From a virus, in the IMG/VR virus record IMGVR_UViG_3300045988_136394, positions 1 through 64,000 of that record: 64,000 nucleotides of DNA. The stretch is one strand, 5' to 3'. Made by a program: the position numbers and the translations under genes. Positions within the stretch are counted from its first letter, which is position 1; each line of letters starts with the position of its first letter. Positions 3,255 to 39,247 of the stretch are shown here, piece by piece. The notes under the pieces are model-generated. The model was not told the origin of the DNA and did not search any database. It worked only from the letters and a program-made list of their open reading frames with translations.

Positions 3255-3299
3255 TAGGGTAATAAAAAATATAGTCCCTGTTAGAAGCTGGTAGGCAGA

Positions 3300-3620
3300 A
3301 AAACCCCTAACAGCACACAGTATTACTACTGTCTACTGAAAAGAGGTTTTTGCGATTGCGTCCCCGCCGTCGCTGTATAGTTGAATTGCTAGCCATTTCA
3401 TAGCGTCCCCAACGTCCCACGCTCCATGACTTACCCCCGCGCACTCTGCGCCCGTTGCCGCCAGCCGTATATTTTATAGACTATGCCTGTCTAAAGGTAT
3501 ATACACCATACCAGAGTAGGTTGACCTCTGCCAACTTCCCCCCCGCATAAAGCCCACTACAGCTAAAGCGGCTACTGATTTTTGCAATTAGAAAATCAGT
3601 AGGGGCAACGACTTTATAAA
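3300..3620. other. GC-rich ORF-free island between divergent promoters, with several hairpins; possible structured RNA or protein-binding region
   Basis: Local GC is far above the phage average (runs such as gcgtccccgccgtcgc and cccccgcgcactctgcgcccgttgccgcc). No ORF longer than 22 codons. An 11-bp stem ctactgatttt/aaaatcagtag is present. Confidence 0.3.
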
Positions 3621-3745
3621 CTTGGCTCGTTGCAGCACCAACCATTTTTTATACACAGGTGGGGTTATTCTGTGTCATTCCTATAGAGGTAAGGAATTTT
3701 TTCTATATTTAGTTAAAATCTAGTGTCAGCATTTACTTTTTTATA

Positions 3746-3780: not shown

Positions 3781-3928
3781 ATAGGCGTAACAAAAGGGGA
3801 CCTATAACTTCTAAAAGTTATAAGTTGATAATTAGTGTCGGCAAACATTTTTTATTGACATTGTTTTTTTTTGTTGCGTTTGCGTATGAGGTAGCAGCTC
3901 TGAAAAGAGTTGCTACTTTTTTATTTTA
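3781..3928 (+). ncRNA. candidate small RNA, about 150 nt, from the consensus promoter to an intrinsic terminator; no plausible ORF
   Basis: Promoter at 3746-3774. Terminator hairpin gtagcagctct-gaaa-agagttgctac followed by TTTTTTATTTT. Internal hairpin ataactt/aagttat. Confidence 0.35.
3891..3928 (+). terminator. Rho-independent terminator
   Basis: 11-bp stem with one G.U pair, GAAA loop, then T6AT4. Nested inside an outer 7-bp stem atgaggt/acctcat. Confidence 0.55.
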
Positions 3929-3953: not shown

Positions 3954-3983
3954 TGTGGATAATGTGGATAACTCTGTGTATAA
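3954..3983. promoter_or_regulatory. tandem DnaA-box cluster (TGTGGATAA-TGTGGATAA plus TGTGTATAA) followed by an AT-rich stretch
   Basis: Two contiguous perfect 9-mers matching the Firmicute DnaA-box consensus TTATCCACA/TGTGGATAA and a third copy with one mismatch. Confidence 0.55.
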
Positions 3984-4065: not shown

Positions 4066-4094
4066 TTGATTTTTTTAGCCGTGCCGTTTATAAT
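4066..4094 (+). promoter_or_regulatory. sigmaA-type promoter TTGATT-17-TATAAT
   Basis: ttgatt tttttagccgtgccgtt tataat. Confidence 0.45.
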
Positions 4095-4128
4095 AATTCT
4101 GTAATTACAAATGCGTTAGGGGGGGGCA

Positions 4129-8615: not shown

Positions 8616-8750
8616 TGTTTTTAAACTCCTTTCATATAATTACATTAAAAAATTTTTTACGGCCGTTTACGGACTGTTTTCATTAAGGCATTTTCCCAAC
8701 TCCTAACATTTTATTTACAGTTTTTAGCCCTATTTTGTGGCTATGCGTTT

Positions 8751-8779
8751 ATTATAATGCTATCTAGTATATTTGTCAA
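8751..8779 (-). promoter_or_regulatory. consensus sigmaA promoter (minus strand) TTGACA-17-TATAAT for the 8615 to 6099 operon
   Basis: Reverse complement reads TTGACAAATATACTAGATAGCATTATAAT. Confidence 0.55.
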
Positions 8780-8875
8780 CAATTATTTTTAACGACATAA
8801 ATCGTCCATTAAGGGTCTGTATTTTTGCTTTTAGATTTTATGATTTAACTCCTTAAATGGTTTTACGTGGCTTGT

Positions 8876-8936
8876 GTTTTTGATTATGGAAAATCACTCT
8901 ATAGGAGGGTATATTTTTTGATTATGGAAAATCATC
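8876..8936. repeat. two 21-bp direct repeats (TTTTTGATTATGGAAAATCA) with a 39-bp period; iteron-like
   Basis: Seen directly at 8876-8897 and 8915-8936. A G-rich motif ggtaggggtgggtggtagg follows at about 8948-8968. Confidence 0.6.
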
Positions 8937-8949
8937 CATTAATGGAGAT

Positions 8950-10060
8950 GTATTATGGTAGGGGTGGGTGGTAGGCCACATCTTCAAAACGGACTCCTGG
9001 GGGTATTAATTATGAAGATTAATAACATGGTAAGGGCATCTAGTTGCTTATGCTTATCAATAGCTATTGCTATTAGCTTATTATGCTAATTAATAATAAG
9101 GTATTATTTTGTATATATACTAATAATACACTTTTACTATTTATCTATACTTCATAATCATCTATATTACTAATAATATTCATTTATTATTTACCGCCAA
9201 ATGGCATAAACACTGGCTTTTTAATTAATAATGGCTATTGCTTATAATATATTGCTTGTTTGCATGGCTTGTATTATGGTATATATTGTATATATACATA
9301 TATTATATATTAATAAGGCTTCATAAGCATTAATTGTTACTAATAATGAGCTTGTGCTTATCATGCAGCGGCAAAAATAGTATTAAATCCTTATATGTAT
9401 ATGTTGTTTGTAGCCCTTAAACACTATATTTCCCATATTACCACATTGTTTATATTACTATATTTCACACTATATTTCTACTATTACTTGCATATAACAA
9501 TGGTAAATAGCTACCTAATATAACATAATATACAATATAACATGGTAACATATACTAAAAGCTAAATGGTAATATATTTCACCCTATACTATATGTTATA
9601 TTGTATATATTTCTATACTCTACTATGTAGTAACCTATAGTATATTTCACCTATTACTAATTATTAAAAGCTTTCTATATGTATATTATTATTAGTGTTA
9701 TATGTTGTTATATTTTAGTATTTTCTATATTGTATATATTATTAAAACCTAATAATTTTTACACAGCGCGGCGGCTTAAATTTTATATGGTATTATTAGA
9801 GTTCATTATCTTTACTAATATTTGTTATTAAACAGCATTATTATTACTATTAATATTAATTCCTATTACTCTTATTTTACTAGCTAATTACCTTTGCTTA
9901 TTTACCTGCAATCTGCATAAATATTGGCTTTTTAATCTTTTTTATTGCTTATTAATAATTGTTGCTAATTATATTGTTTGCTAATTATTCTGTGTTATTG
10001 TTTGTTGTATTATTACTATTATTGTTATTTATTATTTAATATTTTCAATAGTCACTAAAA
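8950..10060. repeat. 1.1-kb ORF-free, extremely AT-rich low-complexity tract with degenerate repeats (TTGCT/ATTGC/GCTTAT words; roughly 40-bp related copies at 9186 and 9900; isolated GC islands at 9365, 9765 and 10075)
   Basis: No ORF of 60 aa or more on either strand. Repeated ttatttacc(g/t)..gcataaa..tggctttttaat elements. Confidence 0.5.
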
Positions 10061-10358
10061 TACGTTTGTACTTACTACGCCGCCGCCAAATTTTGCCTAC
10101 ATTAATACTTTTTACCCTGCCCTATTACTTATACCTTTGCACGCAAAAACCTTTTATAGCCAATTTATATGCCTATAAAGCCTATTGCCAATTTACTAAT
10201 TTGCCAAAATACGCTATTTTTATTATATTTTTTATTACTTTTACATCATTTTATAAAATATGTTTACATATTTTGCTTGTAATTTTTTAATATTGTATAT
10301 TGTAATTTACAAGCAATTATGTTATAATAAAACCATAATAAACAAGGGGGTATTTAAT

Positions 10359-12755: not shown

Positions 12756-13016
12756 TTAAAATTGTTGGGTATAAATATAACACTTTTTAATGCCATTATA
12801 TTTATAATCAATAAATATTCCTTTTTCGGTTTTTTTCGTATATAGTTTTAATATTACAATACCATATTGTGCTATATAATCACAAAAATACTCTTCAAGT
12901 AATTGGGCTATTTCATCATATGAAAGGTCGGCATAAGGAGCAAACAGTAAATAACTATTAATCATCGCTCCTAAAAAGTCCTCAACATTTAATACTATAT
13001 CATTTCCAATAATCAT
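12756..13016 (-). CDS. hypothetical protein
   Basis: 86-aa ORF. Confidence 0.4.
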   Translation of the reverse strand: MIIGNDIVLNVEDFLGAMINSYLLFAPYADLSYDEIAQLLEEYFCDYIAQYGIVILKLYTKKTEKGIFIDYKYNGIKKCYIYTQQF

Positions 13017-13027
13017 AATTAAACCTC

Positions 13028-13306
13028 CTATAATGGCATTAATGGATTAGTGACTAATAAAGTATTGATGTTATATCGATTTCGACGTAACATATCGTAT
13101 TCAACATTACCATGAATTGTTCTAGTAAATGGCTGTGTAATTAAATAAACACTTTTACCTGAAGGTGATATTTCTTTACTAATAACTTTGCTTAATAATC
13201 CATAATTCCAAACTAATACATCGCCAACTTTAATATCAATTGCTTTAGTACCTTCAAAATAGCCCTTAAAACCTTGTAAATGTACACCATTTTTCATATT
13301 AGTCAT
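13028..13306 (-). CDS. hypothetical protein
   Basis: 92-aa ORF. Confidence 0.4.
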   Translation of the reverse strand: MTNMKNGVHLQGFKGYFEGTKAIDIKVGDVLVWNYGLLSKVISKEISPSGKSVYLITQPFTRTIHGNVEYDMLRRNRYNINTLLVTNPLMPL

Positions 13307-13496
13307 CCTTCCTAAATGTGTTATTAAACCTTTTTAACATTTTATACCAATTGAGCAGCATGAAAATAGGGAAACCTGCAATATAAATAATTGTTACTAC
13401 AATAAAACCACATAATTTTGTAAAAGCGTATTCGTTATTAATTAAGTACCATGCGCCAAACACAATGACGCATGATACTAGCAACATAGTTAACAT
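13299..13496 (-). CDS. small membrane protein (65 aa)
   Basis: Two hydrophobic segments. Overlaps its neighbours by a few nt. Confidence 0.4.
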   Translation of the reverse strand: MLTMLLVSCVIVFGAWYLINNEYAFTKLCGFIVVTIIYIAGFPIFMLLNWYKMLKRFNNTFRKDD

Positions 13497-14152
13497 TATT
13501 TAGCCTCCACTTGTTTACGTTGCATAATAGTCGAACCTTCAACTACTCCTTGCAAAAATGCACATGTATCAACAGGAGCGTTACGCTTTTTAGTTTTAAA
13601 AGTGCCTGCCCCTTTTTCGGCCATAAATTTGTCGAACTCGGTATTTACTTCCTCGGCAACTGTAATTTTTAAAGCCGTGCAGTTTTTGTCAAGCTCCTTT
13701 TTTAAACCTACTAAAAAACCATCGACAAAACTGTTATACACGCCTTTAACTCCGTTACCCTGTTTCCAAATTTTCGTTTGGTAACTATCGGCCATACGGT
13801 GAATGGCCTGCCATAACCATTCGTAAATTTTGGTAACCGTTTTAGCGTTATTTTCGTAACCATAAAATACTGGAATCATTTTTTCAGCCCATATTAATTT
13901 TACACCATAATTATTAGCTAAAATTGTTGCCAGCGCAAAACGGTAACTTTTACCCCTTGCATTCACTGCAAATTCAGCCACGATATTTGCAGGTTTTTTG
14001 CTAATGTTTTGTAATTTAATGTTGTACTTTGCCATTAATTCCTGGGCTTTAGCGGCCGCTGCAATGGCCTCGGCTTGGTTGGTATTTTTGTTCGCCAACT
14101 CCAGTAATTTAATAATTTGTTGTTCTAGTTTGTTTAATTTTTGTTCAGTCAT
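13496..14152 (-). CDS. DUF2786-like N-terminal domain protein (218 aa)
   Basis: N-terminal KLLELANKNTNQAEAIAAAAKAQELMAKYNI resembles the DUF2786 helical motif found in phage proteins. Confidence 0.4.
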   Translation of the reverse strand: MTEQKLNKLEQQIIKLLELANKNTNQAEAIAAAAKAQELMAKYNIKLQNISKKPANIVAEFAVNARGKSYRFALATILANNYGVKLIWAEKMIPVFYGYENNAKTVTKIYEWLWQAIHRMADSYQTKIWKQGNGVKGVYNSFVDGFLVGLKKELDKNCTALKITVAEEVNTEFDKFMAEKGAGTFKTKKRNAPVDTCAFLQGVVEGSTIMQRKQVEAK

Positions 14153-14184
14153 TTTTATGACCCCCTTGTTTATTTGTTATACTT

Positions 14185-14213
14185 ATTATAAACGATTTTG
14201 CTTATAAAGTCAA
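14185..14213 (-). promoter_or_regulatory. consensus promoter TTGACT-17-TATAAT (minus strand) for 13496..14152
   Basis: Reverse complement reads TTGACTTTATAAGCAAAATCGTTTATAAT. Shares the leader ...CAAATAAACAAGGGGG. Confidence 0.55.
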
Positions 14214-14220
14214 GCACTTT

Positions 14221-14514
14221 TTAAAAATTTTTATCATTTTTAATTTGTAACATTAAATCGCTATAAACTTTAATTTGTTGCTCGGTTAGCCATTCTGGCT
14301 TAATTTTTAAACTATCATATATAATGTACATATATTCGATGTGCATTTCAACAGTTTCGCCCCACAAGTGGCGTTCATTGCCGTTGCCATAACCTAAATA
14401 GTATTTGCAATCTGTTTGCAGTCGGTTTAGCAACATATATTTAAATTGTTCATCATGGCTTTCGATATACAATGCAAACCGACCTAATTCAATATTTTGT
14501 TTTTTAGTTAACAT
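14221..14514 (-). CDS. hypothetical protein
   Basis: 97-aa ORF with RBS AAGGGGG. Confidence 0.45.
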   Translation of the reverse strand: MLTKKQNIELGRFALYIESHDEQFKYMLLNRLQTDCKYYLGYGNGNERHLWGETVEMHIEYMYIIYDSLKIKPEWLTEQQIKVYSDLMLQIKNDKNF

Positions 14515-14553
14515 ATTTTTGCCCCCTTTATTATTTGTTTACCTTGTAACTAC

Positions 14554-14582
14554 ATTATAAACGATTGTGATTTAAAAGTCAA
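14554..14582 (-). promoter_or_regulatory. consensus promoter TTGACT-17-TATAAT (minus strand) for 14221..14514
   Basis: Reverse complement reads TTGACTTTTAAATCACAATCGTTTATAAT. Confidence 0.55.
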
Positions 14583-14610
14583 CACTTTTTATGAAAAAAT
14601 TTTCAAAAAA

Positions 14611-14651
14611 AAAGTTATCCACAACTTTATTCACAGCCTGTGGATAACTTT
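14611..14651. promoter_or_regulatory. inverted pair of DnaA boxes (AAAGTTATCCACA...TGTGGATAACTTT, 13-bp perfect inverted repeat, 15-bp spacer) just upstream of the promoter at 14554-14582
   Basis: Perfect TTATCCACA and TGTGGATAA 9-mers seen directly. Confidence 0.5.
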
Positions 14652-14795
14652 CGTCTTCATAAATGGCCTGTATTAAGTTTTTTAGCGTGACCACATATAT
14701 TTATACCTATAAAGCCTAAAAACCGTTAAAACTAAAATATGAAGAAATTTAGGGTGATTGGCAAAAATGCAAAAAAAATAACCTGCAAATGCAGG

Positions 14796-15017
14796 CTATT
14801 TAAATAATTGTTCACGAGTTTTTTGCAGGTCGACTGCCTCTCCAGTACGCTTGTTAACCTTAATTATAGTGTGTGTTTGTGGCTCTTCGTAAAATTCGTG
14901 TGTTTCGTTTTGGGTAATTAGCCTTGGTTTTGGCTTAAAACCTTCAGGCGAATCGACTGGCCGAGTTGTTAAAAAGGTAACGGCCAATATAAATAATATT
15001 ACTGTTAACTTTTTCAT
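14796..15017 (-). CDS. small secreted or membrane-anchored protein (N-terminal signal/TM)
   Basis: MKKLTVILFILAVTFLTT hydrophobic N-terminus. Confidence 0.4.
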   Translation of the reverse strand: MKKLTVILFILAVTFLTTRPVDSPEGFKPKPRLITQNETHEFYEEPQTHTIIKVNKRTGEAVDLQKTREQLFK

Positions 15018-15020
15018 TTT

Positions 15021-15344
15021 TTATTCCTCCTCCGGGTAACGAATATCCAGATATTCACATTCTACAACATCGCCGTCTTCGTCTACTTCAACTTCCTGCA
15101 ACATAAGGCAGTCAACATTGGCGAACTTTAAACCGCAGTGGTTAAAAATATGAATGCAAAGCAATTCGCTTTCTTTTTCTAAATAATTATAGGCTTCGCT
15201 TTCGGACTCAGTTTCGAATATTACAGTGGGGTTAGAGTCGTCTAACAAATCAACGCTATGGCCATTAAAAAACAGAAATTGCAGTTCTTTTTCCCTAACC
15301 TCGGCAGTCCATTTTAATAATTGAAATTTTTTCATGATATACAC
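15021..15344 (-). CDS. hypothetical acidic protein
   Basis: 107-aa ORF with a consensus promoter upstream. Confidence 0.4.
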   Translation of the reverse strand: MYIMKKFQLLKWTAEVREKELQFLFFNGHSVDLLDDSNPTVIFETESESEAYNYLEKESELLCIHIFNHCGLKFANVDCLMLQEVEVDEDGDVVECEYLDIRYPEEE

Positions 15345-15365
15345 CCCTTTTTTATTTGTAACTAA

Positions 15366-15394
15366 AGTATACCATGAAATTAAATACTAGTCAA
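15366..15394 (-). promoter_or_regulatory. promoter TTGACT-17-TATACT (minus strand) for 15021..15344
   Basis: Reverse complement reads TTGACTAGTATTTAATTTCATGGTATACT. Confidence 0.45.
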
Positions 15395-15744
15395 GCATTT
15401 TCGACTGGTATTGTATAAAGTTTTTTTTGTTGTAGCATTACCAAAAACCGCAAAAGAATCTCTCTTCTTATTAAGTAAACGTGACTAATATTAATACTGT
15501 ATTTATCAGCAAATTGTTTTAATTTTTGGTCACGATTAATAGTAAAAGGAGTTTCGTAATATTCAACTATTAGGTTATAATGTAAATCGCTGTGTTGTTG
15601 ACAATAACTCTTTAATGCTTGTACACATTTAAAAATATTATTTGCTTTTTGATTTACATTATTAGGAACTTTATTATTTCTAATAAGAATATTTTCAATT
15701 TCCCTGTAAATCCTTTTTGCCACTATTTCCATTTTGTTCACCAA
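15391..15744 (-). CDS. hypothetical protein
   Basis: 117-aa ORF. Confidence 0.35.
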   Translation of the reverse strand: MVNKMEIVAKRIYREIENILIRNNKVPNNVNQKANNIFKCVQALKSYCQQHSDLHYNLIVEYYETPFTINRDQKLKQFADKYSINISHVYLIRREILLRFLVMLQQKKLYTIPVENA

Positions 15745-16000
15745 TCCTCAATAAATTATAATTCTTATAGGAACGATTCCTAGTTATGATTTTATAACAT
15801 TCAGCACCGTATCCTCTTTGTCTTGAAATGCTATCCTTCAATGGTTTACCACACCGCAAGCAGTGAGTGATATTTTTAATCATGATGCTGCCCCCAAAAA
15901 TCAATTGCTGCCCTCGTGGATATAATGCTGCCCTTTTGCACTTACAAAATTTACAACACATTCTTTTCGATTGAACATCAGGAAAACAATTCGCAATCAA
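15695..16000 (-). CDS. Cys-rich zinc-binding protein
   Basis: CCKFCKC...HCLRCGK...C cysteine clusters. Confidence 0.35.
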   Translation of the reverse strand: MIANCFPDVQSKRMCCKFCKCKRAALYPRGQQLIFGGSIMIKNITHCLRCGKPLKDSISRQRGYGAECYKIITRNRSYKNYNLLRIGEQNGNSGKKDLQGN

Positions 16001-16014
16001 ATTTCACAAATGCT

Positions 16015-16992
16015 TTATTTAGAATTTCGAATTTCTAATCCTAATTGTATTGTCATAAATAGAACGGCTAAATTATCCATGGCTGTTTCGGCGAATACAA
16101 TGCCCATCTTTATTCCACTTTCAACACTTTGAATATAATCCATAACACCTCGAACCTCGGCAATTTGCCATTTAAAACTAAAAATTTCAGCATTTTTCAC
16201 AGCCCAAAAATTCACACCGGACTCATTTTTTTTGAAACTATAACCGGACTCATATGCTACAACGGAGAATAGTGCTTCAAAAGTATTGTATAAAAAGGCT
16301 AATACTTTTAGAGGTGGATCTGTCTTTTCGTCTAACATTTTAGAAATTTCAATAGCCTTGGCAAAATCACGTTCTAAAACTGCATTAATATATAATTGTA
16401 GCTCGGCTGTAGGTAGTGCAATTAATACCCCATCATTAACAGCTTTATTATATAGCTTACTAATTGTTGTATTATTTACTTGTGCCAGCATTTTTAATTT
16501 ATCTAGTTCTAATAAACATAATGTATAGTTTGAAGAACATCTTTTAATTAAATCTTTTGCCTGTGCTGTATCTAAATCGGAATCTTTTTGAATATACTTA
16601 ATTAAAATAGGCTCCGATAATTTTTCAAAATTAACTATAGTATCTTCATAATGTTTATAAAATTTACTTCGTTTATCTAATGTGTTATAAACGAGTATTA
16701 CTTTACAGGCTCCGGAAGTACACAAAGCCTCTAACCGTTGCCATACAACAATATCCTGTTTTATAAAGTCCGTATCATCTCTAATAACATATAATACAGG
16801 CTTGTTTATTAGTTTATTAGCCCCTAATTTTTTAAAAACATCTGCCACTGTTGGCATTTCCTGTTTTAAATAACCTAAATCTGCAATATTATCTATATAA
16901 ACATTTCGAATATAAATTTCTTCACCAATAAAAATATACACATTATCTAATTCATTCGATTTGATTTGTGTTTTTAATTCAGCTATATTCAT
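16015..16992 (-). CDS. clamp-loader delta subunit (HolA-like)
   Basis: N-terminal ...NVYIFIGEEIY resembles the HolA motif (LYGEE). 325 aa. Adjacent to the delta-prime-like and gamma/tau-like genes. Confidence 0.5.
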   Translation of the reverse strand: MNIAELKTQIKSNELDNVYIFIGEEIYIRNVYIDNIADLGYLKQEMPTVADVFKKLGANKLINKPVLYVIRDDTDFIKQDIVVWQRLEALCTSGACKVILVYNTLDKRSKFYKHYEDTIVNFEKLSEPILIKYIQKDSDLDTAQAKDLIKRCSSNYTLCLLELDKLKMLAQVNNTTISKLYNKAVNDGVLIALPTAELQLYINAVLERDFAKAIEISKMLDEKTDPPLKVLAFLYNTFEALFSVVAYESGYSFKKNESGVNFWAVKNAEIFSFKWQIAEVRGVMDYIQSVESGIKMGIVFAETAMDNLAVLFMTIQLGLEIRNSK

Positions 16993-23900: not shown

Positions 23901-24981
23901 CGATATCCTCGTCTAAAGAAGATAAAATTTGAACGACTTTACCTTCTACCATTTTAATAGCTGTTGGTGTGCCATAGGATAAAGTGATAATATCTGTGGA
24001 TAAAGTATTTACAAGTTCTTTAAATTGAACAATGTCCAATAAGCACTCAAATTCTTTAAAATCATCACTTTCATCATATGGAATAATTTCTTCTGCTTTT
24101 GTTCTTGAAGAAATCATTTTAAGGCCTGTTTTAGTAAACAACAATTTAATAGTATTTTTATCATATTCAGATACGAAAATACTTAAACGGTCTAATGCCG
24201 CTTGCACTAAAGATTTTTTAATTGTACAAGTAGAAGGAAATTTTGTTTCTAAAAAACCATCAAGAGCTTCTACAGGATACGATTCAATATCTTCTAATTG
24301 TGTGCCTGCAATTTCAATCGTTTTGGATTTAATGATAACATCATTATCTACGAAATATACCTGTACATCTTCCTCTGTAATTAGAGTTGACAATTTCAAT
24401 AATTCGATTGGCAATAATGCAGGTCTTTTAAAAACATTTACTGAATATACGCAAAGCCTCAAGCTATCCGTGGTCATTACCCTGTCATTGAAATAATATC
24501 CAGTTATTACAGGATTTTCAATGGTTTTAGCTAAGCTTGCTGTGCAAATATCATAAACCGCCTGAAGAATTGGCTGTTTAACACGTACGGGTTTAACATC
24601 CTCAGGTATTTCTATGGAAACGTCCGGAAATTGCAATATATCCCCATTTTCGTCCAGTACAAGCTCAATATGATAATATCCATTACCTTTAAAAGTTAAA
24701 ACACCTTCCTCAATGGTAAGAATAATATGCTCACTTGTTGTTTTACTTACAAGCTTAGCAAAACTTGCAACAGGCAATACACAAGAAATATTTGGAGCTT
24801 TTACTTTATCTTTGTAAATACTTAAAAAATTAGCTCCATCTGTAGTTCTTAAACACAATACATTATCTTTTACTTCAAAACCAATATAATTCGTTAAAGG
24901 AATAAGTTTATCACAACTTGCACCTTTAACAACTCTGGATACCATATCTTTTAACTCTGATGTAATAATATCAATTTTCAT
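23893..24981 (-). CDS. DNA polymerase sliding clamp (DnaN-like beta subunit)
   Basis: 362 aa. N-terminal MKIDIIT...L...V pattern and clamp-loader context. Confidence 0.5.
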   Translation of the reverse strand: MKIDIITSELKDMVSRVVKGASCDKLIPLTNYIGFEVKDNVLCLRTTDGANFLSIYKDKVKAPNISCVLPVASFAKLVSKTTSEHIILTIEEGVLTFKGNGYYHIELVLDENGDILQFPDVSIEIPEDVKPVRVKQPILQAVYDICTASLAKTIENPVITGYYFNDRVMTTDSLRLCVYSVNVFKRPALLPIELLKLSTLITEEDVQVYFVDNDVIIKSKTIEIAGTQLEDIESYPVEALDGFLETKFPSTCTIKKSLVQAALDRLSIFVSEYDKNTIKLLFTKTGLKMISSRTKAEEIIPYDESDDFKEFECLLDIVQFKELVNTLSTDIITLSYGTPTAIKMVEGKVVQILSSLDEDIDG

Positions 24982-25559
24982 TATTTACTACTCCTTACTA
25001 AATTAATAAAAGATTGTTGTTCATCAAGATTTTCAAAAACGCCACTAGTATGCAAAGTTCTTGTAACCGCTCCTGGCTTTTTAATACCTCTTGCAGTCAT
25101 ACAAGAATGTTCTCCTTCAATCATTACAATTACATTGTCAGTCGATAAAATAGCAGACATAATACGATGAATACTAAATCCCATTCTTTCCTGAATTTGA
25201 AATCTTTTTGCAACCATATCAGCAATACGTGCCATCTTCGAAAGTCCAATTACTTTCGTTCTTGGATAATATCCAATACTTACATTCATATTATACATCA
25301 ATGCAAGATGATGTTCACAGTGACTAAAAACAGGAATATTTGTACAGGTTACAATACCGTGACCAGTTGTTTCAAAACACTTGCCAAACTTACTAACAAG
25401 ATCGGAATCAGAATAGAACTCACCCTCAAGTTGCTCTAACATCATTTTTGCAAATCTTTTAGGAGTTTCCTTTAATGAAGGATCTTGAAGATCTTTTCCA
25501 AAAGCCTGTAAAATAAGCTCTCCTGCGGATATAAGCATTTGTTCTTTAGTATTTTCCAT
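24981..25559 (-). CDS. folE: GTP cyclohydrolase I (FolE); start moved to the internal Met (MENTKEQ...) that abuts the queE stop
   Basis: HCEHH and GHG motifs of FolE. The ORF track extends to 25697 and overlaps queE. Confidence 0.75.
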   Translation of the reverse strand: MENTKEQMLISAGELILQAFGKDLQDPSLKETPKRFAKMMLEQLEGEFYSDSDLVSKFGKCFETTGHGIVTCTNIPVFSHCEHHLALMYNMNVSIGYYPRTKVIGLSKMARIADMVAKRFQIQERMGFSIHRIMSAILSTDNVIVMIEGEHSCMTARGIKKPGAVTRTLHTSGVFENLDEQQSFINLVRSSK

Positions 25560-25560
25560 T

Positions 25561-26214
25561 TTATACTCCTCTTTCATCCGGATTCCATATAATTTTATGA
25601 AGTTGAACTTGTACCATTGTATTTTCAAACATATTATCTTTAACAAATTGAACAAGTTCTTTCGGTTCAATCTGCCCATACACTGGGCTAAGAACATAGG
25701 TACAAATCAAATCCATATTATAAATTCGTTTAAATTCTTCTAAATCTTCTTTAGTAGCAACAACGAATTTCAATACATCATTATAAGTGAGCTTTTTAAG
25801 ATTACTTTCAAGCATTGAACCTAGCATACCACTACTCGGACATTTCCAATCCATTGTAACAAATACTCCGGGCAAACTACAACATGGTTCAATCGGCACA
25901 GAACCATTTGTTTCAATATTTACATGATACCCACCCCAAGATAAAGCTTCAATAAGATCGTTCATACCCGCTCTAAATAATGGTTCTCCACCTGTTAAAG
26001 TTACACGGCAACAACCAATTTTAGCAATGCTTTCAAGAATTTCCTGTAAAGACATATTTGGTTCTTGAACATCTTGTGCGTAAAGGGTATCACAATAACT
26101 ACAACATAAGTTACAGCCATTAAAGCGTACAAAAGTTGAAAGAAATCCAGTTCTAATTCCTTCACCTTCCACACTTAAAAACATTTCATTTACACTATAT
26201 ATCTTCTTGTTCAT
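25561..26214 (-). CDS. queE: 7-carboxy-7-deazaguanine synthase (QueE, radical SAM)
   Basis: CNLCCSYC (CxxxCxxC) radical-SAM cluster motif, about 217 aa. Confidence 0.75.
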   Translation of the reverse strand: MNKKIYSVNEMFLSVEGEGIRTGFLSTFVRFNGCNLCCSYCDTLYAQDVQEPNMSLQEILESIAKIGCCRVTLTGGEPLFRAGMNDLIEALSWGGYHVNIETNGSVPIEPCCSLPGVFVTMDWKCPSSGMLGSMLESNLKKLTYNDVLKFVVATKEDLEEFKRIYNMDLICTYVLSPVYGQIEPKELVQFVKDNMFENTMVQVQLHKIIWNPDERGV

Positions 26215-26533
26215 AAATTGCTAAATTCCCTTCGCTTTCTTGTACTTCTACTCTGTAACACGTTGGAATAATATCACAAATATATTTTGCAATATTTTCA
26301 GCTGTTGGATTAAAAGGAACAACTTGATTAATACTTTGATGATCGAATACATCCATTACACATTTTTTAATATGTGTAAAATCCTCAACCATGCCATAAT
26401 CCGAAAGTTCTCTAGCTTTGCAATAAATTTTAACTTTCCAATTATGACCGTGAAGATTAGCGCATTTACTCTCATAAGGCAGATTTAAATAATGAGATGC
26501 AGATATTTCTAATTCTTTGATAACTGTGTACAT
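26195..26533 (-). CDS. queD: 6-carboxy-5,6,7,8-tetrahydropterin synthase (QueD)
   Basis: CANLHGHNW (CxxxHGH) zinc motif, about 112 aa. Confidence 0.75.
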   Translation of the reverse strand: MYTVIKELEISASHYLNLPYESKCANLHGHNWKVKIYCKARELSDYGMVEDFTHIKKCVMDVFDHQSINQVVPFNPTAENIAKYICDIIPTCYRVEVQESEGNLAIYEQEDI

Positions 26534-26712
26534 TTTCTTCCTCCTGGTTTAATACGATTATGATATCTTTTTACTTTTACTTCGTGAATAAGATTTAATA
26601 ATACTTCAGCAGAAACTAATAAATTACCATTAGTATATTCATTTGCATATAAAGCAGTCTTTGCTCTTGTTTCTAGTTCTTTGATGGTTTTACCGTCTAC
26701 CATTTTTGCCAT
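26509..26712 (-). CDS. hypothetical 67-aa protein embedded in the deazaguanine operon
   Basis: ORF between queC and queD. No motif. Confidence 0.3.
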   Translation of the reverse strand: MAKMVDGKTIKELETRAKTALYANEYTNGNLLVSAEVLLNLIHEVKVKRYHNRIKPGGRKCTQLSKN

Positions 26713-26714
26713 AA

Positions 26715-27401
26715 TTAACCTCGCAAAGCTGGATCTTTTACACCATTAACTTCAAAAGCATGAGCTCTATCTCTACATGTACCACATACTCCACAAGGTT
26801 TTTCTCCACCCTCATAACAAGACCATGTAAATTTATAAGGGACTTTCAATGACAATCCAGCTTTAACAACTTCGCCTTTATTAAACATAATCAAAGGAGC
26901 TCTTAATGTAAGTTGGCCGCCAGTACCTTCTAAAATTGCTTTACGCATGGCATCCACAAATTCAGGAGTACAGTCCGGATATGCCCTACCAGCCGCATCA
27001 TCTGCATGAGCGCCATACCACACTTCACAGCCCCCGAGGGAATAAGCCAAAGACGCCGCTGAAGATAACATTAAGCCGTTACGAAATGGTACATAGGTAC
27101 TAACAGTCCCTTCACCACCTAATTCCTTTAATTGTTCGGCATAGGTAGTATGTTTAATTTCATTTTTACTATTTTTTAATAAACAGCAATCACTCAATTC
27201 CATAATACTACTAATATCCCGAACAATATGTTGAACACCATAATGTTCCGCTAACTTTTTAGCACAAGCTAATTCTTTCTCATGCTTTTGGCCGTAGTAA
27301 ATAGATAACGCTGTTACCTCTTTATTGCCATAACAATCAACTGCCATACCTAAACAAGTAGCGCTATCAACACCACCGCTCAACAATACAACTGCTTTCA
27401 A
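26715..27401 (-). CDS. queC: 7-cyano-7-deazaguanine synthase (QueC)
   Basis: SGGVDS PP-loop and C-terminal CGVCGTCRDR zinc motif. Confidence 0.85.
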   Translation of the reverse strand: MKAVVLLSGGVDSATCLGMAVDCYGNKEVTALSIYYGQKHEKELACAKKLAEHYGVQHIVRDISSIMELSDCCLLKNSKNEIKHTTYAEQLKELGGEGTVSTYVPFRNGLMLSSAASLAYSLGGCEVWYGAHADDAAGRAYPDCTPEFVDAMRKAILEGTGGQLTLRAPLIMFNKGEVVKAGLSLKVPYKFTWSCYEGGEKPCGVCGTCRDRAHAFEVNGVKDPALRG

Positions 27402-28321
27402 AATAATCGCCTCCTAATAATTTTTCCACCATGATAAGTATATTCTTTTGCCCAATCCATCAAAAATGTTACATTCCACAAATCGCGCTGAACATAATCT
27501 TCCATTAACTGCTCAAAATCGAAATTCTTGCTTTTAATGTAAGATTTTAAATCTTCCAAAGCTACAGCACTACCATTTAAAGGGTGAGCCATTTTATCCT
27601 TTTGCTGAGCACTAATAATAATAGTACCCCATGGAGTATAAATTGCTCCATTATGCCCGCTTTGAATCCACGAAGAACTATCCGCAGAAGTAACTGGATA
27701 TTGGACTAAAGTTTTTCTTACAGTCATTCCAAAAGCATGGACTTTAACATTGGGATTACTCGAACTTTTTATAATATCAAAACATAACGATAAAAAGTTC
27801 TTTTGTACATCTTTAGGCTTGCCCACCATACCACCAAGAGCGATATATTTTAATGGTTGGCCATTTTCATCTCGCCATTCTAAGGCTCTACGCAAACACC
27901 ATATCGGTTCACCCACATGGAACGTATATAGTAAGCCATCCTTATTTAAAACAGCATCCCTCATATACAAATAATTTTTCCATGTTTTTACAGCTGCATC
28001 TAATACTTGTGCTTGTGTAGGCTTTTGCCTGATGTTTCCTGGAATACAGTCCAATTGACCAAATAAATCAATATACTGCACTCTGTCGTTTAAAAAGTAA
28101 ACATAATCATCAACATTAATATATGTACCTTTAGTCCATGCAGTAAAAGCACCACTGTCAATAAATAGTTTACCTTTTCGACCGTATTGATTAATCCAGC
28201 CAATCCATCTATCAATATTTTTCCTTTCGTTCAAATAACTGAATAGATGATTGGCTCCCATATCGAACAAGCACTTATCTACATGATCTGTAACTTGTCC
28301 CGCAAAATATAAATCTAACAT
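27398..28321 (-). CDS. dpdA: DpdA-like tRNA-guanine-transglycosylase-family protein (putative 7-deazaguanine DNA transglycosylase)
   Basis: ALGGMVGK resembles the TGT AIGGL(A/S)VGE motif. Operon context with folE, queD, queE and queC. Confidence 0.55.
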   Translation of the reverse strand: MLDLYFAGQVTDHVDKCLFDMGANHLFSYLNERKNIDRWIGWINQYGRKGKLFIDSGAFTAWTKGTYINVDDYVYFLNDRVQYIDLFGQLDCIPGNIRQKPTQAQVLDAAVKTWKNYLYMRDAVLNKDGLLYTFHVGEPIWCLRRALEWRDENGQPLKYIALGGMVGKPKDVQKNFLSLCFDIIKSSSNPNVKVHAFGMTVRKTLVQYPVTSADSSSWIQSGHNGAIYTPWGTIIISAQQKDKMAHPLNGSAVALEDLKSYIKSKNFDFEQLMEDYVQRDLWNVTFLMDWAKEYTYHGGKIIRRRLF

Positions 28322-28378: not shown

Positions 28379-28415
28379 TAAAAATAACCATTACGATTCA
28401 GTCGTAATGGTTATT
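28379..28415 (-). terminator. Rho-independent terminator after the DNA polymerase gene
   Basis: aataaccattacg-attcagt-cgtaatggttatt hairpin with a T-run on the minus strand. Confidence 0.55.
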
Positions 28416-31364: not shown

Positions 31365-32273
31365 TTATTCCTCCTCGTCCTCTAATGCCTCTGCCTCAAC
31401 TTCTGGAGTTTCTACTTTTTTAGATGCTTTTTTTGCAGCCTTTTTAGGTTTTACACCCAATTTTTCAGCAATTGCTTCTTTTTTCTTTTGTTCTTCTTTT
31501 TCCAATTTTTTCTGGCGTGCGGCCTCTAATGCCTCTGCCTTTTGAGCCTTACGAGTATTTACACCTTTTTGATATTCAACAGAAGCGGCTACACATTTAC
31601 GGATAAGATTTGCAGTTTTCTCATTATCCTCTGTTAAAGAAATACGAGCATCAAACATATGCTTCATAGTTTTATATTCAATATTCAGGCCATCAAGAGC
31701 TTTAGTACGAAGCCACAATACAATTCCTTTAGTGCTAAAAGTAAAGGCCATGCACATATGACCATCAAGTTTAATGGTGTGGAAACCTTTAACACGAGTT
31801 ACAAAAATTGTGCAACCAGCGGCTTTAACAATAGTTTCAACAACATCTTTCAAAGGAGAAATTTGACGTGGAGCTTTAGGCTCTTTTACTTTTTTCTCTT
31901 TTTTAGGTTTTGGTTCTTTTTTAGCTTCAGCTTTCTTAGTACCACGTTTTACAGGTTTTACTGGTTCAGGTTCTTCCTCAGATTCTTCATCCTCTTCTTC
32001 GCAGTCCTCAACAGCGTCTTCATCCGCATCTTCGACTTCTTCTTCCTCAGAATCCTCAGAAGCTTCCTCGTCAACTTCCTCTTCAGTTTCTTCTTCTTCA
32101 AGATCTTCGACTTCCTCAACTACTTCTTCCTCAACTTCCTTGTAAAAGCGTTCATAAGATTTGCGATTAACAATTCTTTCTTTACCGGAGTTCAAATCTT
32201 TTAAAGTGATGTCATCTCCATCTTTGCTAACCAATTCAAATTCTGCGTTGTTTCTTGTGCAAATTACTTTCAT
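31365..32273 (-). CDS. bipartite acidic/basic low-complexity protein (poly-E/D stretch followed by K-rich segments); start moved to the first ATG
   Basis: About 55-aa E/D run and then KKEPKPKKEKKVKEPK. The TTG at 32321 is too close to the promoter to be the start. Confidence 0.4.
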   Translation of the reverse strand: MKVICTRNNAEFELVSKDGDDITLKDLNSGKERIVNRKSYERFYKEVEEEVVEEVEDLEEEETEEEVDEEASEDSEEEEVEDADEDAVEDCEEEDEESEEEPEPVKPVKRGTKKAEAKKEPKPKKEKKVKEPKAPRQISPLKDVVETIVKAAGCTIFVTRVKGFHTIKLDGHMCMAFTFSTKGIVLWLRTKALDGLNIEYKTMKHMFDARISLTEDNEKTANLIRKCVAASVEYQKGVNTRKAQKAEALEAARQKKLEKEEQKKKEAIAEKLGVKPKKAAKKASKKVETPEVEAEALEDEEE

Positions 32274-32325
32274 AATACTACCACACTTTCTAAATAAATT
32301 TTGTAAGGTTTTCACCTTCAATTAC

Positions 32326-34686: not shown

Positions 34687-35326
34687 TCAAAATTCGACTG
34701 GATAAGCGTTTACCAACCTGTTTTTCTAAATCTTTATCAGAAACATTACTTGTAAAAATATTAGCAAGTCCCATATTCATTCTTGAATTAATAAAATCAT
34801 ATAAAGTATTTTGTTCAAAAGCGCTTAATCCTGAAACTGCAACATCATCCCAAACTACTAAATCAACAACAGGAATTAAATCTAATAAATCTTGTACATT
34901 ATTTGCTGAATTAAAGGATTGTTTTATGGAAAACAATAAATTTTGTGTAGAAAGGAACAGTCCCCGAGGTTTAAATCCGTTACCTAGCCAGATTTCACTA
35001 AAGTATCGCAGGAGAAATTTGGTTGCCCATGTAGTTTTCCCATTACCTGTAAAACAACTGTGAATAAATAAATTTTCACCCGCCGCCACAAAATTAATAA
35101 TATCCTGTTTTAAATCATTAAGATATTCAAAACTATCATAATCACAACTATCAGGTTTTAAATTTACAGATTTCTGATATACTTTTGGAATACGGCTAGT
35201 ATAAATTAAAAAATCAAATTCCATAAATCTTAAACAACTAGCACAACAGTCAGTTGTTTTGTACTTGCCACAAACATCTTTAAACCAGCATTTTTCACGA
35301 TCAAATTTATACTCATACATAATCAA
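34640..35326 (-). CDS. DnaI/DnaC-like helicase loader (N-terminal Cys-rich zinc module plus P-loop ATPase)
   Basis: CGKYKTTDCCASC zinc cluster and GNGKTT P-loop. Confidence 0.45.
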   Translation of the reverse strand: MIMYEYKFDREKCWFKDVCGKYKTTDCCASCLRFMEFDFLIYTSRIPKVYQKSVNLKPDSCDYDSFEYLNDLKQDIINFVAAGENLFIHSCFTGNGKTTWATKFLLRYFSEIWLGNGFKPRGLFLSTQNLLFSIKQSFNSANNVQDLLDLIPVVDLVVWDDVAVSGLSAFEQNTLYDFINSRMNMGLANIFTSNVSDKDLEKQVGKRLSSRILSGDIVALRGKDRRRG

Positions 35327-39157: not shown

Positions 39158-39247
39158 AATTATTGGCCTCCTTATATACTAATTATACCGCAATGATTTT
39201 AAAATGTCAATAAAAAAGAGTACATTCCGAAGAATGTACTCTTTAAA

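What the first reader, a model, noticed from the sequence alone, without database searches (positions are those of the whole stretch)
14611..14651. Inverted DnaA-box pair in a 13-bp perfect palindrome, directly upstream of an early promoter
AAAGTTATCCACA...(15 bp)...TGTGGATAACTTT is a second DnaA-box site. It lies next to the -35 of promoter 14554-14582. It may be a DnaA-regulated promoter or a second origin element.
Basis: seen in the sequence. Interest (0 to 1): 0.55.

Follow-up and report, generated by a model that had tools for sequence, protein, structure and literature searches.

The report
Three-box host DnaA site on phage
A gut phage carries three binding sites for the host replication starter protein DnaA just upstream of one of its promoters, in the arrangement bacteria keep in front of their own dnaA gene, so the phage probably ties transcription here to the host's replication state.

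Summary
AAAGTTATCCACA (14611-14623) and TGTGGATAACTTT (14639-14651) are a perfect 13-bp inverted repeat. The three boxes are each 3 bp apart, one facing the other two.

The window is most of a roughly 66-kb tailed phage from human-gut Bacillota. It has its own initiator, probably with an internal origin, so a second origin here is unlikely.

Relatives with about 60% protein identity keep the three boxes. Their only changes fall at the degenerate fifth position of the box consensus. The perfect palindrome, the T-run and the distance to the promoter (17-32 nt) all vary.

The same arrangement occurs in 77 viral contigs. Its mirror image occurs in none. In bacteria it lies upstream of dnaA, in the same orientation, in 75 of 81 sampled dnaA loci.

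Best reading: a host-DnaA docking site that makes transcription at this operon boundary respond to DnaA. On the transcribed strand it also folds as a terminator-like hairpin. DnaA binding is very likely. The exact effect is inferred, not shown.

It is a new member of a known kind, of moderate interest.

The parts
14611..14651 (.). 41-bp element: 13-bp perfect inverted repeat with a 15-bp spacer. It contains all three DnaA boxes.
   Evidence: Read directly. Identical in close relatives. Relatives at about 60% protein identity differ at 2 positions only.
14639..14647 (-). Distal box (farthest from the promoter). Perfect TTATCCACA on the - strand, facing the other two boxes.
   Evidence: It becomes TTATTCACA (a change at position 5 only) in L045-type relatives.
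14627..14635 (+). Middle box, TTATTCACA. It fits TT(A/T)TNCACA and lies 3 bp from each neighbour.
   Evidence: It becomes perfect TTATCCACA in L045-type relatives.
14615..14623 (+). Promoter-proximal box, perfect TTATCCACA. With the middle box it forms a same-orientation 'double DnaA box' with a 3-bp gap.
   Evidence: The double-box rule comes from E. coli ChIP-seq (PMC11317965). One variant contig, L006, has TTACCCACA here.
14583..14610 (-). A/T-only spacer between the repeat and the -35 hexamer. On the - strand it starts with a run of T right after the hairpin.
   Evidence: Its length and sequence vary among natural variants, so the distance from the proximal box to the -35 is 17-32 nt, and the T-run is interrupted in L251 and L258.
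14554..14582 (-). Promoter P1, TTGACT-17-TATAAT, of host sigma-A/sigma-70 type. With the transcription start predicted near 14547, the box centres lie at about -72, -84 and -96.
   Evidence: It is one of 13 consensus promoters in the window, against 0.2 expected.
14652..14775 (-). Conserved non-coding block of about 125 nt between the upstream terminator and the boxes. It holds weak promoter-like hexamers: TTGCCA-17-CATATT (14764-14736) and TTAACG-18-TATAAA, which starts 82 nt before the distal box.
   Evidence: It is better conserved than the flanking coding DNA in relatives at 60% protein identity. One search gives the first hexamer pair. The second I read from the sequence. No conserved ORF, no Rfam match and no covariation.
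14776..14801 (-). Canonical intrinsic terminator of the upstream 73-aa gene (14796-15017).
   Evidence: A change on both arms in L005 and L243 keeps the stem pairing. Fold energy -14.1 kcal/mol.
14221..14514 (-). First gene downstream of P1. It encodes a 97-aa protein with an LPD11 domain.
   Evidence: Pfam PF18824, E = 7e-27. PHROG 15551.
13496..14152 (-). Second downstream gene (DUF2786 plus DUF7168), with its own promoter P2 at 14185-14213, which is nearly identical to P1.
   Evidence: In some natural variants the LPD11 gene is missing and the boxes sit directly before this gene.
3954..3983 (-). The other DnaA-box cluster in the window: two abutting perfect boxes plus TTATACACA 3 bp away. 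It lies in a non-coding region of about 1.3 kb where the direction of transcription switches.

Best explanation
The element is a compact three-box binding site for the host replication initiator DnaA.

Read in the direction of transcription (- strand) it is AAAG-TTATCCACA-ggc-TGTGAATAA-agt-TGTGGATAA-CTTT. One box faces two tandem boxes, and all gaps are 3 bp. The tandem pair is the canonical 'double DnaA box' that binds a DnaA dimer. The facing box adds a head-to-head contact. The whole is the arrangement that Bacillota and some other bacteria keep upstream of their own dnaA gene.

On the phage it sits at an operon boundary. A terminator and a conserved 125-nt block lie upstream. A consensus host-type promoter (P1) and the LPD11/DUF2786 genes lie downstream.

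Proposed working:
- DnaA bound here acts on transcription across the boundary.
- It blocks or ends transcription that arrives from upstream. The RNA hairpin plus U-run encoded by the same DNA helps.
- It may also modulate P1.
- Expression of the downstream genes therefore follows the amount or activity of host DnaA.

Shown: the sequence, the architecture, the conservation pattern and the bacterial counterpart. Inferred: that DnaA binds in vivo, and the direction and size of the effect on transcription.
For: - Two perfect boxes and one consensus-compatible box at 3-bp gaps. Perfect boxes are five-fold enriched in the window.
- In E. coli, DnaA binds in vivo mainly to co-oriented box pairs 2-3 bp apart, often preceded by (a/g)AG as here (PMC11317965).
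- Relatives at about 60% protein identity (L045-L047, and L241, L246, L249, L253, L255, L259, L261) keep the 41 bp with two changes, both at the degenerate position 5 of a box. Meanwhile the perfect palindrome is lost, the AAAG flank mutates to AAAA in L251, the T-run is interrupted in L251 and L258, and the distance to the -35 ranges from 17 to 32 nt.
- The same layout at 3/3 gaps occurs in 77 IMG/VR contigs (56 distinct, GC 26-66%). The mirrored layout occurs in 0.
- In 120 sampled bacterial loci with this layout, 81 contain dnaA. In 75 of those 81 the three boxes lie upstream of dnaA and in the same orientation, with a median of 283 bp before the start of the DnaA alignment.
- DnaA is an established repressor, activator and transcription roadblock (PMC8203912; PMC11317965).
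- Strong outward-facing promoters within 80 bp of the boxes number 11 in 51 viral instances, against about 2.7 expected if evenly spread.
Against: - No binding or expression data exist.
- The box-to-promoter distance is not phased (17-32 nt), which does not fit a classical upstream activator. The boxes do not overlap P1, which does not fit simple occlusion.
- In low-GC bacteria, promoter-like hexamers peak 50-90 nt upstream of the boxes. There the boxes are in the transcribed leader. On the phage the only strong promoter is downstream of them, and the upstream hexamers are weak.
- In other phages the three boxes show no fixed polarity relative to neighbouring genes or promoters.
- The phage encodes a 7-deazaguanine DNA-modification pathway, including a DpdA-like enzyme. 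This could alter the G residues in the boxes and weaken DnaA binding.
Confidence: 0.45

Rival explanations
1. The element is mainly an intrinsic transcription terminator. On the - strand RNA the two arms pair and a U-run follows. This would end a short transcript made from the conserved 125-nt block, or mop up read-through from the terminator at 14776-14801, and so insulate P1. The DnaA-box sequence would be secondary.
For: - RNA fold of -21.8 to -22.4 kcal/mol, z about -6, followed by nine U. This is as stable as the phage's clear terminators (-14.1 and -16.5).
- The hairpin persists in all variants (-17.3, -19.7, -13.3). The two arm substitutions seen (L006, L045-type) both give G-U pairs on this strand.
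- The phage's usual intergenic design is a terminator hairpin directly before a consensus promoter, as at 28383-28415 and 39215-39244.
- The upstream block is conserved and has promoter-like hexamers.
Against: - A terminator does not need three consensus DnaA boxes, and the loop itself is a conserved box. Any inverted box pair folds as RNA, so the hairpin is not independent evidence.
- The stem has only 4 G-C pairs in 13, and the loop is 15 nt (8 nt with the two inner pairs of the fold). The terminator scan did not call it.
- The U-run is interrupted in L251 and L258 while the 9-mers stay intact.
- Two G-U-compatible transitions are expected by chance one time in four.
- No covariation and no Rfam family.
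- The same three-box layout recurs across GC 26-66% and upstream of dnaA.
Confidence: 0.15
2. The element is a sink or modulator for host DnaA. Replicating phage genomes add many high-affinity convergent sites that titrate DnaA and shut down host initiation. Alternatively, like the E. coli DARS core, they change the nucleotide state of DnaA through head-to-head contacts.
For: - The orientation pattern matches the DARS1 core read from E. coli: TTATCCACT-attcc-TGTGGATAA-cca-TGTGTATTA (PMC6868365).
- The layout is widespread in phages without fixed polarity towards genes. This fits a role that does not depend on neighbouring genes.
- The phage has its own replisome and initiator, so it could afford to block host initiation.
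Against: - The gap between the facing boxes is 3 bp, not the 5 bp of DARS.
- There are only six or seven good boxes per genome.
- The searched literature gave no DARS in Bacillota.
- The tight, conserved placement between a conserved block and a promoter is not needed for a sink.
Confidence: 0.15
3. The element is a DnaA-dependent replication element: a second origin, or a site where DnaA helps open DNA or load a helicase, activated by transcription from P1.
For: - DnaA boxes lie next to a 28-nt pure A/T stretch and a strong promoter.
- In Bacillota the dnaA-upstream box cluster is part of the two-part chromosomal origin (PMC4447404; PMC8203912).
- Some viral contigs carry the inverted pair in box-rich regions next to ParA or Rep3 genes.
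- Lactococcus phage AM4 has DnaA boxes in a 1.5-kb non-coding region where strand composition switches.
Against: - There are only three boxes within 400 bp.
- The position where an unwinding (DnaA-trio) array would sit is taken by the facing box (read, compared with the B. subtilis layout recalled from my own knowledge).
- The A/T stretch is variable and shrinks to 13-14 nt in relatives.
- The phage has a complete initiator/loader/helicase module with repeats and an AT-rich stretch inside the initiator gene.
- The other box cluster, at 3954-3983, is the more origin-like of the two.
Confidence: 0.1
4. The element is the operator of a phage-encoded dimeric DNA-binding protein, and the resemblance to DnaA boxes is coincidental.
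For: A perfect 13-bp inverted repeat is the classic form of an operator.
Against: - The perfect symmetry is not conserved, whereas the three 9-mers are.
- The 13-mer occurs only here in the window.
- The same boxes and layout occur in unrelated phages and upstream of bacterial dnaA.
Confidence: 0.05

Closest known systems
DnaA-box cluster upstream of the bacterial dnaA gene (autoregulated dnaA promoter region; in Bacillota also the upstream half of the two-part oriC)
   Same: Identical layout: TTATNCACA-N3-TGTGNATAA-N3-TGTGNATAA. It is co-oriented with the gene transcribed downstream. 75 of 81 sampled bacterial dnaA loci with this pattern have it upstream of dnaA in this orientation. T-rich DNA follows the last box.
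   Different: - The phage gene downstream is LPD11/DUF2786, not dnaA.
- In low-GC bacteria, promoter-like hexamers lie mostly 50-90 nt upstream of the boxes. The phage's strong promoter lies 17-32 nt downstream of them.
- No sequence similarity extends beyond the boxes.
- Bacterial sites often have further boxes nearby.
'Double DnaA box' regulatory sites of E. coli (nrdA, polA, purH, mioC and others; Stringer, Fitzgerald and Wade 2024, PMC11317965)
   Same: Two co-oriented boxes 3 bp apart, one perfect and one near-consensus, with an (a/g)AG flank, upstream of a promoter.
   Different: A third, facing box is present. The host is a Bacillota species, not E. coli. No binding data exist.
DARS1/DARS2 core of E. 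coli (DnaA-reactivating sequences)
   Same: Three boxes, with box I facing box II and box III in tandem with box II at a 3-bp gap. The CACA ends face each other.
   Different: The gap between boxes I and II is 5 bp in DARS and 3 bp here. DARS function is known only in E. coli and its relatives.
DnaA boxes on other phage genomes: lambda (DnaA-stimulated pR transcription) and the T5 injection-stop region (box pairs 3 bp apart inside inverted repeats)
   Same: Host DnaA boxes on a phage that has its own replication proteins. Pairs are 3 bp apart and associated with inverted repeats (bioRxiv 10.1101/866236). For lambda there is a link to transcription rather than to origin opening (PMC8203912).
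   Different: T5 has eight boxes in large repeats in a terminal non-coding region, and their role is only hypothesised. The lambda boxes are arranged differently. The present element is a single 33-bp three-box unit at an operon boundary.
DnaA/dnaA-box transcription roadblocks (asnC, guaB in E. coli)
   Same: A DnaA box in the path of RNA polymerase ends transcription (cited in PMC11317965). Here the boxes lie between an upstream transcription unit and the next promoter.
   Different: Those cases use single boxes inside or after genes. Here there are three boxes in both orientations plus an RNA hairpin and a U-run.

Membership tests
DnaA-box cluster / double DnaA box | At least one 9-mer matching TTATCCACA, or TT(A/T)TNCACA | tested here: met
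   Two perfect 9-mers and one TTATTCACA.
DnaA-box cluster / double DnaA box | Two co-oriented boxes separated by 2-3 bp | tested here: met
   14615-14623 and 14627-14635 have a 3-bp gap. The rule is from PMC11317965.
DnaA-box cluster / double DnaA box | Selective constraint on the 9-mers rather than on the flanks | tested here: met
   In diverged relatives the only changes are at box position 5. The flanks, the T-run and the spacing to the promoter vary. One contig (L006) has a position-4 change.
DnaA-box cluster / double DnaA box | DnaA protein binds the site | not testable with these tools
   Needs EMSA, footprinting or ChIP. Possible 7-deazaguanine modification of the phage DNA is a caveat.
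dnaA-upstream three-box unit of Bacillota and others | One box facing two tandem boxes, 3-bp gaps, CACA ends facing | tested here: met
   One search compared.
dnaA-upstream three-box unit of Bacillota and others | Located upstream of dnaA and co-oriented with it | tested here: not met
   The downstream genes are LPD11 and DUF2786/DUF7168. The Pfam/PHROG scans of the ORFs tested in the window turned up no DnaA homologue. The co-orientation with the downstream gene is kept.
dnaA-upstream three-box unit of Bacillota and others | Promoter upstream, so that the boxes lie in the early transcribed region | tested here: inconclusive
   Bacterial promoter-like hexamers peak 50-90 nt before the first box. 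The phage has only weak candidates there (TTAACG-18-TATAAA at 82 nt; TTGCCA-17-CATATT at 117 nt).
DARS core | Three boxes, box I opposite to boxes II and III | tested here: met
   One search compared with DARS1 read from NC_000913.3.
DARS core | 5-bp gap between the facing boxes I and II | tested here: not met
   3 bp here. 5 bp in DARS1 and as stated in PMC6868365.
DARS core | Promotes ADP release from DnaA | not testable with these tools
   Biochemical assay needed.
DnaA-dependent replication origin | Array of DnaA-trios or an unwinding element with the correct polarity next to the boxes | tested here: not met
   The position 3' of the tandem boxes is occupied by GCC plus the facing box. No CTA/TTA triplet array follows (read; the B. 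subtilis layout is recalled from my own knowledge).
DnaA-dependent replication origin | Multiple (more than three) boxes and a stable AT-rich unwinding stretch | tested here: not met
   Three boxes within 400 bp. The A/T stretch shrinks to 13-14 nt in relatives.
Intrinsic terminator | Stable RNA hairpin followed directly by a U-tract on the transcribed strand | tested here: met
   -21.8 kcal/mol and nine U in the window. Weaker, with an interrupted U-tract, in L251 and L258.
Intrinsic terminator | G+C-rich stem and a short (3-8 nt) loop | tested here: inconclusive
   4 G-C pairs in 13. The loop is 15 nt, or 8 nt with the two inner pairs of the fold. The consensus scan did not call it.
Intrinsic terminator | Lies at the end of a transcription unit | tested here: inconclusive
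   It lies 125 nt downstream of a canonical terminator. Only weak promoter-like hexamers lie between the two.
T5-type injection-stop DnaA boxes | Eight boxes in pairs within large inverted repeats of the terminal-repeat non-coding region | tested here: not met
   A single three-box unit inside the gene map. The T5 description is from bioRxiv 10.1101/866236.

The most novel reading that the evidence does not exclude
Phages of many bacterial phyla carry a portable copy of the cell's own dnaA-control unit (one DnaA box facing two tandem boxes). They use it to read or rewrite the host's replication-initiation state. Possible ways are sensing DnaA activity to time gene expression, or acting like DARS or datA to change the pool of active DnaA during infection. 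The element at 14611-14651 would be one example of a widespread and so far undescribed class of host-initiator decoys on phage genomes.
Probability: 0.12. Interest if true: 0.8.

Novelty: new member of a known kind. Interest (0 to 1): 0.45.

Why it matters
DnaA is the best readout a phage could have of whether its host is growing and about to replicate. A phage promoter region built like the host's own dnaA control region gives a concrete, testable case of a virus plugging into the replication-initiation circuit of gut Bacillota.

The survey made along the way is also useful beyond this phage:
- 77 viral contigs have this layout, and none has the mirror layout.
- 75 of 81 bacterial dnaA loci have it upstream and co-oriented.

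Together these suggest a rule for how DnaA boxes are arranged. The rule can be used to find real DnaA sites in phages and bacteria. Single 9-mers predict them poorly.

Tried and rejected
- Megablast of 13000-16500 against cultured phages gave no match. The phage is known only from metagenomes.
- Rfam gave nothing at gathering threshold for the whole window. At E <= 1 for 14400-14900 it gave only chance-level matches.
- A consensus RNA fold of the conserved block plus the hairpin in four relatives showed no compensatory pair. Two of my four coordinate ranges were also cut short.
- Distant LPD11 relatives (L008, L009, 53% identity) and distant DUF2786 relatives (L048-L059, 31-41% identity) have no box cluster. 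The element is therefore confined to this phage lineage and is not a property of the gene family.
- BLAST of the phage intergenic region against the 120 bacterial loci found similarity only over the boxes. Recent capture of a host dnaA upstream region is not supported.
- I looked for a fixed polarity of the three boxes towards genes or promoters in other phages and found none.
- I looked for a conserved small ORF in 14652-14775 on either strand. Candidates are not kept in L045-type relatives (read).
- The DnaA-trio origin reading was rejected from the sequence.
- One family scan failed on a wrong coordinate.
- A literature search for a description of this three-box layout, or of phage DnaA decoys, found none. 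This does not prove that none exists.

Full report
**What is in the sequence.**
- The + strand reads AAAGTTATCCACA (14611-14623), then ACTTTATTCACAGCC, then TGTGGATAACTTT (14639-14651). The 13-bp arms are perfectly complementary, and each contains the DnaA-box consensus TTATCCACA.
- The spacer contains a third box, TTATTCACA (14627-14635), which fits the accepted consensus TT(A/T)TNCACA.
- Nearly all genes here are on the - strand. Read in that direction the element is AAAG-TTATCCACA-ggc-TGTGAATAA-agt-TGTGGATAA-CTTT. One box faces two tandem boxes, and every gap is 3 bp.

**Chance.**
- Exact TTATCCACA occurs 5 times in the window against 1.0 expected. None of 100 shuffles reached 5. Boxes with one mismatch are barely enriched (34 against 23.7).
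- The three-box pattern is expected about 7e-9 times per window from base composition.
- Perfect hairpin-type repeats of at least 13 bp occur at six places, against 0.13 in simulations.

**Genomic setting.**
- The window is a tailed phage. It has a tail sheath, tape measure and major head protein at 54-62 kb.
- Its replication genes are a family-A polymerase, sliding clamp, three clamp-loader subunits, DnaB, primase, SSB, a DnaC-like loader and an O-like/DnaD-N initiator.
- The nearest cultured relatives are Clostridium, Streptococcus, Brevibacillus and Psychrobacillus phages, at 40-48% protein identity.
- All close relatives come from human-gut metagenomes. Two contigs carry the region twice and look like dimer assemblies. 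That puts the genome near 66 kb.
- The phage has 13 consensus host-type promoters, against 0.2 expected.
- The element lies in the intergenic region 14515-14795. In the direction of transcription the order is:
  - the terminator of a 73-aa gene (14801-14776);
  - about 125 nt of non-coding DNA;
  - the three boxes;
  - 28 nt of pure A/T that begins with a T-run;
  - promoter P1, TTGACT-17-TATAAT (14582-14554);
  - a Shine-Dalgarno site and the LPD11 gene;
  - a near-identical promoter P2 and the DUF2786/DUF7168 gene.
- With the transcription start predicted near 14547, the box centres are at about -72, -84 and -96.

**Conservation.**
- Near-identical contigs keep the element unchanged. Because their flanks are nearly identical too, this says little.
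- The informative relatives are L045-L047 and several metagenome contigs, whose neighbouring proteins are about 60% identical. They have the same layout: terminator, conserved block, AAAG-TTATTCACA-ggc-TGTGGATAA-agt-TGTGGATAA-CTTT, promoter.
- Only two of the 41 positions differ. Both are the degenerate fifth position of a box.
- The perfect 13-bp symmetry is therefore lost while all three boxes stay within consensus.
- Other natural variants change the AAAG flank to AAAA, interrupt the T-run (CTTTATTT), change the box-to-promoter distance (17, 18, 29, 30, 31, 32 nt), delete the LPD11 gene, or put a different gene downstream. The three 9-mers and the block upstream of them stay together.
- One contig (L006) has a position-4 change in the proximal box.
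- This pattern is what selection for DnaA binding predicts. It is not what selection for a symmetric operator, or for a fixed activator position, predicts.

**The layout is a recurring unit.**
- The 13-mer inverted pair occurs in 25 IMG/VR contigs. A control repeat of the same composition occurs in none.
- The three-box pattern at 3/3 gaps occurs in 77 contigs (56 distinct sequences, GC 26-66%).
- The mirror pattern, with the ATAA/TTAT ends facing, occurs in none. Three tandem boxes occur in at least 120, a set that includes simple tandem repeats.
- The viral consensus is (A)AG-TTATCCACA-GSC-TGTGGATAA-MCC-TGTGGATAA-CT.
- A tblastn search with E. coli DnaA found dnaA in 81 of these 8-kb loci. 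In 75 of the 81 the three boxes lie upstream of dnaA in the same orientation, with a median of 283 bp before the start of the alignment. Four are inverted and two lie elsewhere.
- The phage element thus has the form of the DnaA-box unit of the dnaA control region, and it is likewise co-oriented with the gene that follows.
- Similarity to the bacterial loci does not extend beyond the boxes.

**How it probably works.**
- The tandem pair matches the 'double DnaA box' that E. coli DnaA needs for binding in vivo (PMC11317965).
- The facing box gives the head-to-head geometry known from the DARS core. I read that core from the E. coli genome as TTATCCACT-attcc-TGTGGATAA-cca-TGTGTATTA (PMC6868365).
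- DnaA is an established repressor and activator of transcription, including of its own gene. It can also stop elongating RNA polymerase (PMC8203912; PMC11317965).
- I therefore think DnaA bound here controls transcription across this boundary. I put the probability that DnaA binds the site at about 0.8. I put the probability that its main role is control of transcription at about 0.45.
- The unphased distance to P1 argues against a precise activator contact. A block to transcription arriving from upstream, perhaps with a looser effect on P1, fits better.
- In low-GC bacteria, promoter-like hexamers peak 50-90 nt upstream of the boxes. The phage's conserved block has weak hexamers at comparable positions. 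The unit may thus include a weak upstream promoter whose transcripts run into the boxes.

**The terminator reading.**
- On the - strand RNA the arms form a hairpin of -21.8 kcal/mol followed by nine U. This is as stable as the phage's clear terminators.
- The phage's usual intergenic design is a terminator fused to a promoter.
- This function may well coexist with DnaA binding. It cannot by itself explain three conserved consensus boxes, one of them in the loop, nor the recurrence of the layout upstream of dnaA.

**The origin reading.**
- The initiator gene (35323-36102) contains two perfect 22-bp tandem repeats (35782-35825) followed by about 90 nt of AT-rich DNA. That is the classic form of a phage origin inside its initiator gene.
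- The site at 14.6 kb has only three boxes, no trio array and a variable A/T stretch.
- If DnaA takes part in replication at all, the cluster at 3954-3983 is the better candidate. It lies in a 1.3-kb non-coding region where transcription diverges.

**Sink or DARS-like reading.**
- It is not excluded. The orientation pattern matches DARS, and in phages the three boxes show no polarity towards genes (+,+ 9; -,- 10; divergent 8; 43 of 56 intergenic).
- The 3-bp gap differs from the 5 bp of DARS. I also found no report of DARS in Bacillota.

**Caveats.**
- There are no binding or expression data.
- The phage encodes FolE, QueD, QueE, QueC and a DpdA-like enzyme. Its DNA may therefore carry 7-deazaguanine, which could affect recognition of the G-containing boxes.

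**Verdict.**
- The DnaA-box interpretation is well supported. Promoter regulation is plausible. An origin is unlikely.
- This is a new member of a known kind, namely host DnaA boxes on phage genomes.
- The useful side result is that the layout copies the bacterial dnaA-upstream unit and recurs in many phages.

Noticed in passing
window 35700-35830 (inside gene 35323-36102, - strand): Two perfect 22-bp tandem repeats (35782-35825; ACGTGTTCCAGAAAGTAGAACA on the - strand) are followed by about 90 nt of very AT-rich DNA, all inside the O-like/DnaD-N initiator gene. This is probably the phage's own replication origin.
   Followed up: partly
window 24981-28321 (- strand): A 7-deazaguanine pathway: FolE, QueE (radical SAM), QueD, QueC and a DpdA-like transglycosylase. 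The phage DNA is probably modified at guanines, as in Dp-1-like phages.
   Followed up: partly
window 3954-3983: The other DnaA-box cluster: two abutting perfect boxes plus TTATACACA 3 bp away. It lies between a terminator-like hairpin (about 3890-3925) and a promoter-like site (about 4067-4095), in a 1.3-kb non-coding region where the direction of transcription switches.
   Followed up: partly
window 3255-3660 (- strand): A G+C-rich non-coding stretch in a 32% GC genome. As RNA it folds at -141.8 kcal/mol (z = -3.9) and has no Rfam match. It may be a structured RNA.
   Followed up: partly
window 8700-10260: A non-coding region of about 27% GC, full of direct and inverted copies of TATATTGTATATATAC-like units. 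Function unknown.
   Followed up: no
window 28383-28415 and 39215-39244 (- strand); 13 promoters listed: The standard intergenic design of this phage is a terminator hairpin whose U-tract runs straight into a consensus TTGACA-17-TATAAT promoter. There are 13 such consensus promoters, against 0.2 expected.
   Followed up: partly
L248, L252, L256 (metagenome); L007; L258; L261: Natural mosaics occur at this locus. The LPD11 gene is lost, apparently by recombination between the near-identical promoters P1 and P2. In L007 a deletion removes P1 and the start of LPD11 but keeps the boxes. L258 has a different downstream gene. L261 is a recombinant with L045-type boxes and window-type downstream DNA.
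   Followed up: partly
L262-L381 (bacterial genome loci): The pattern TTATNCACA-N3-TGTGNATAA-N3-TGTGNATAA lies upstream of dnaA and co-oriented with it in 75 of 81 sampled dnaA loci, mostly Bacillota and Rubrobacteraceae. Promoter-like hexamers peak 50-90 nt before it in low-GC genomes. I found no description of this rule in the papers searched.
   Followed up: partly
L383 (Lactococcus phage AM4, NC_049856.1 97.7-99.2 kb): A cultured virulent Lactococcus phage has four DnaA boxes in an unannotated 1.5-kb non-coding region that flips from G-rich to C-rich. It looks like an origin. Streptomyces, Enterococcus, Vibrio and T5-like phages also gave unannotated matches to the box cluster.
   Followed up: partly
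L012 (6534-6571) and L061 (2737-2769): In other phages the inverted pair or the three boxes sit inside the structural module: before the portal gene in L012, and between the minor capsid and scaffold genes in L061. DnaA boxes on phages are therefore not confined to replication or early regions.
   Followed up: no
window 31365-32321 (- strand): This ORF has a long acidic, repetitive stretch. The DNA repeats at 31972-32140 are on the opposite strand, and there are only weak low-complexity Pfam hits. It lies between the SSB and primase genes.
   Followed up: no
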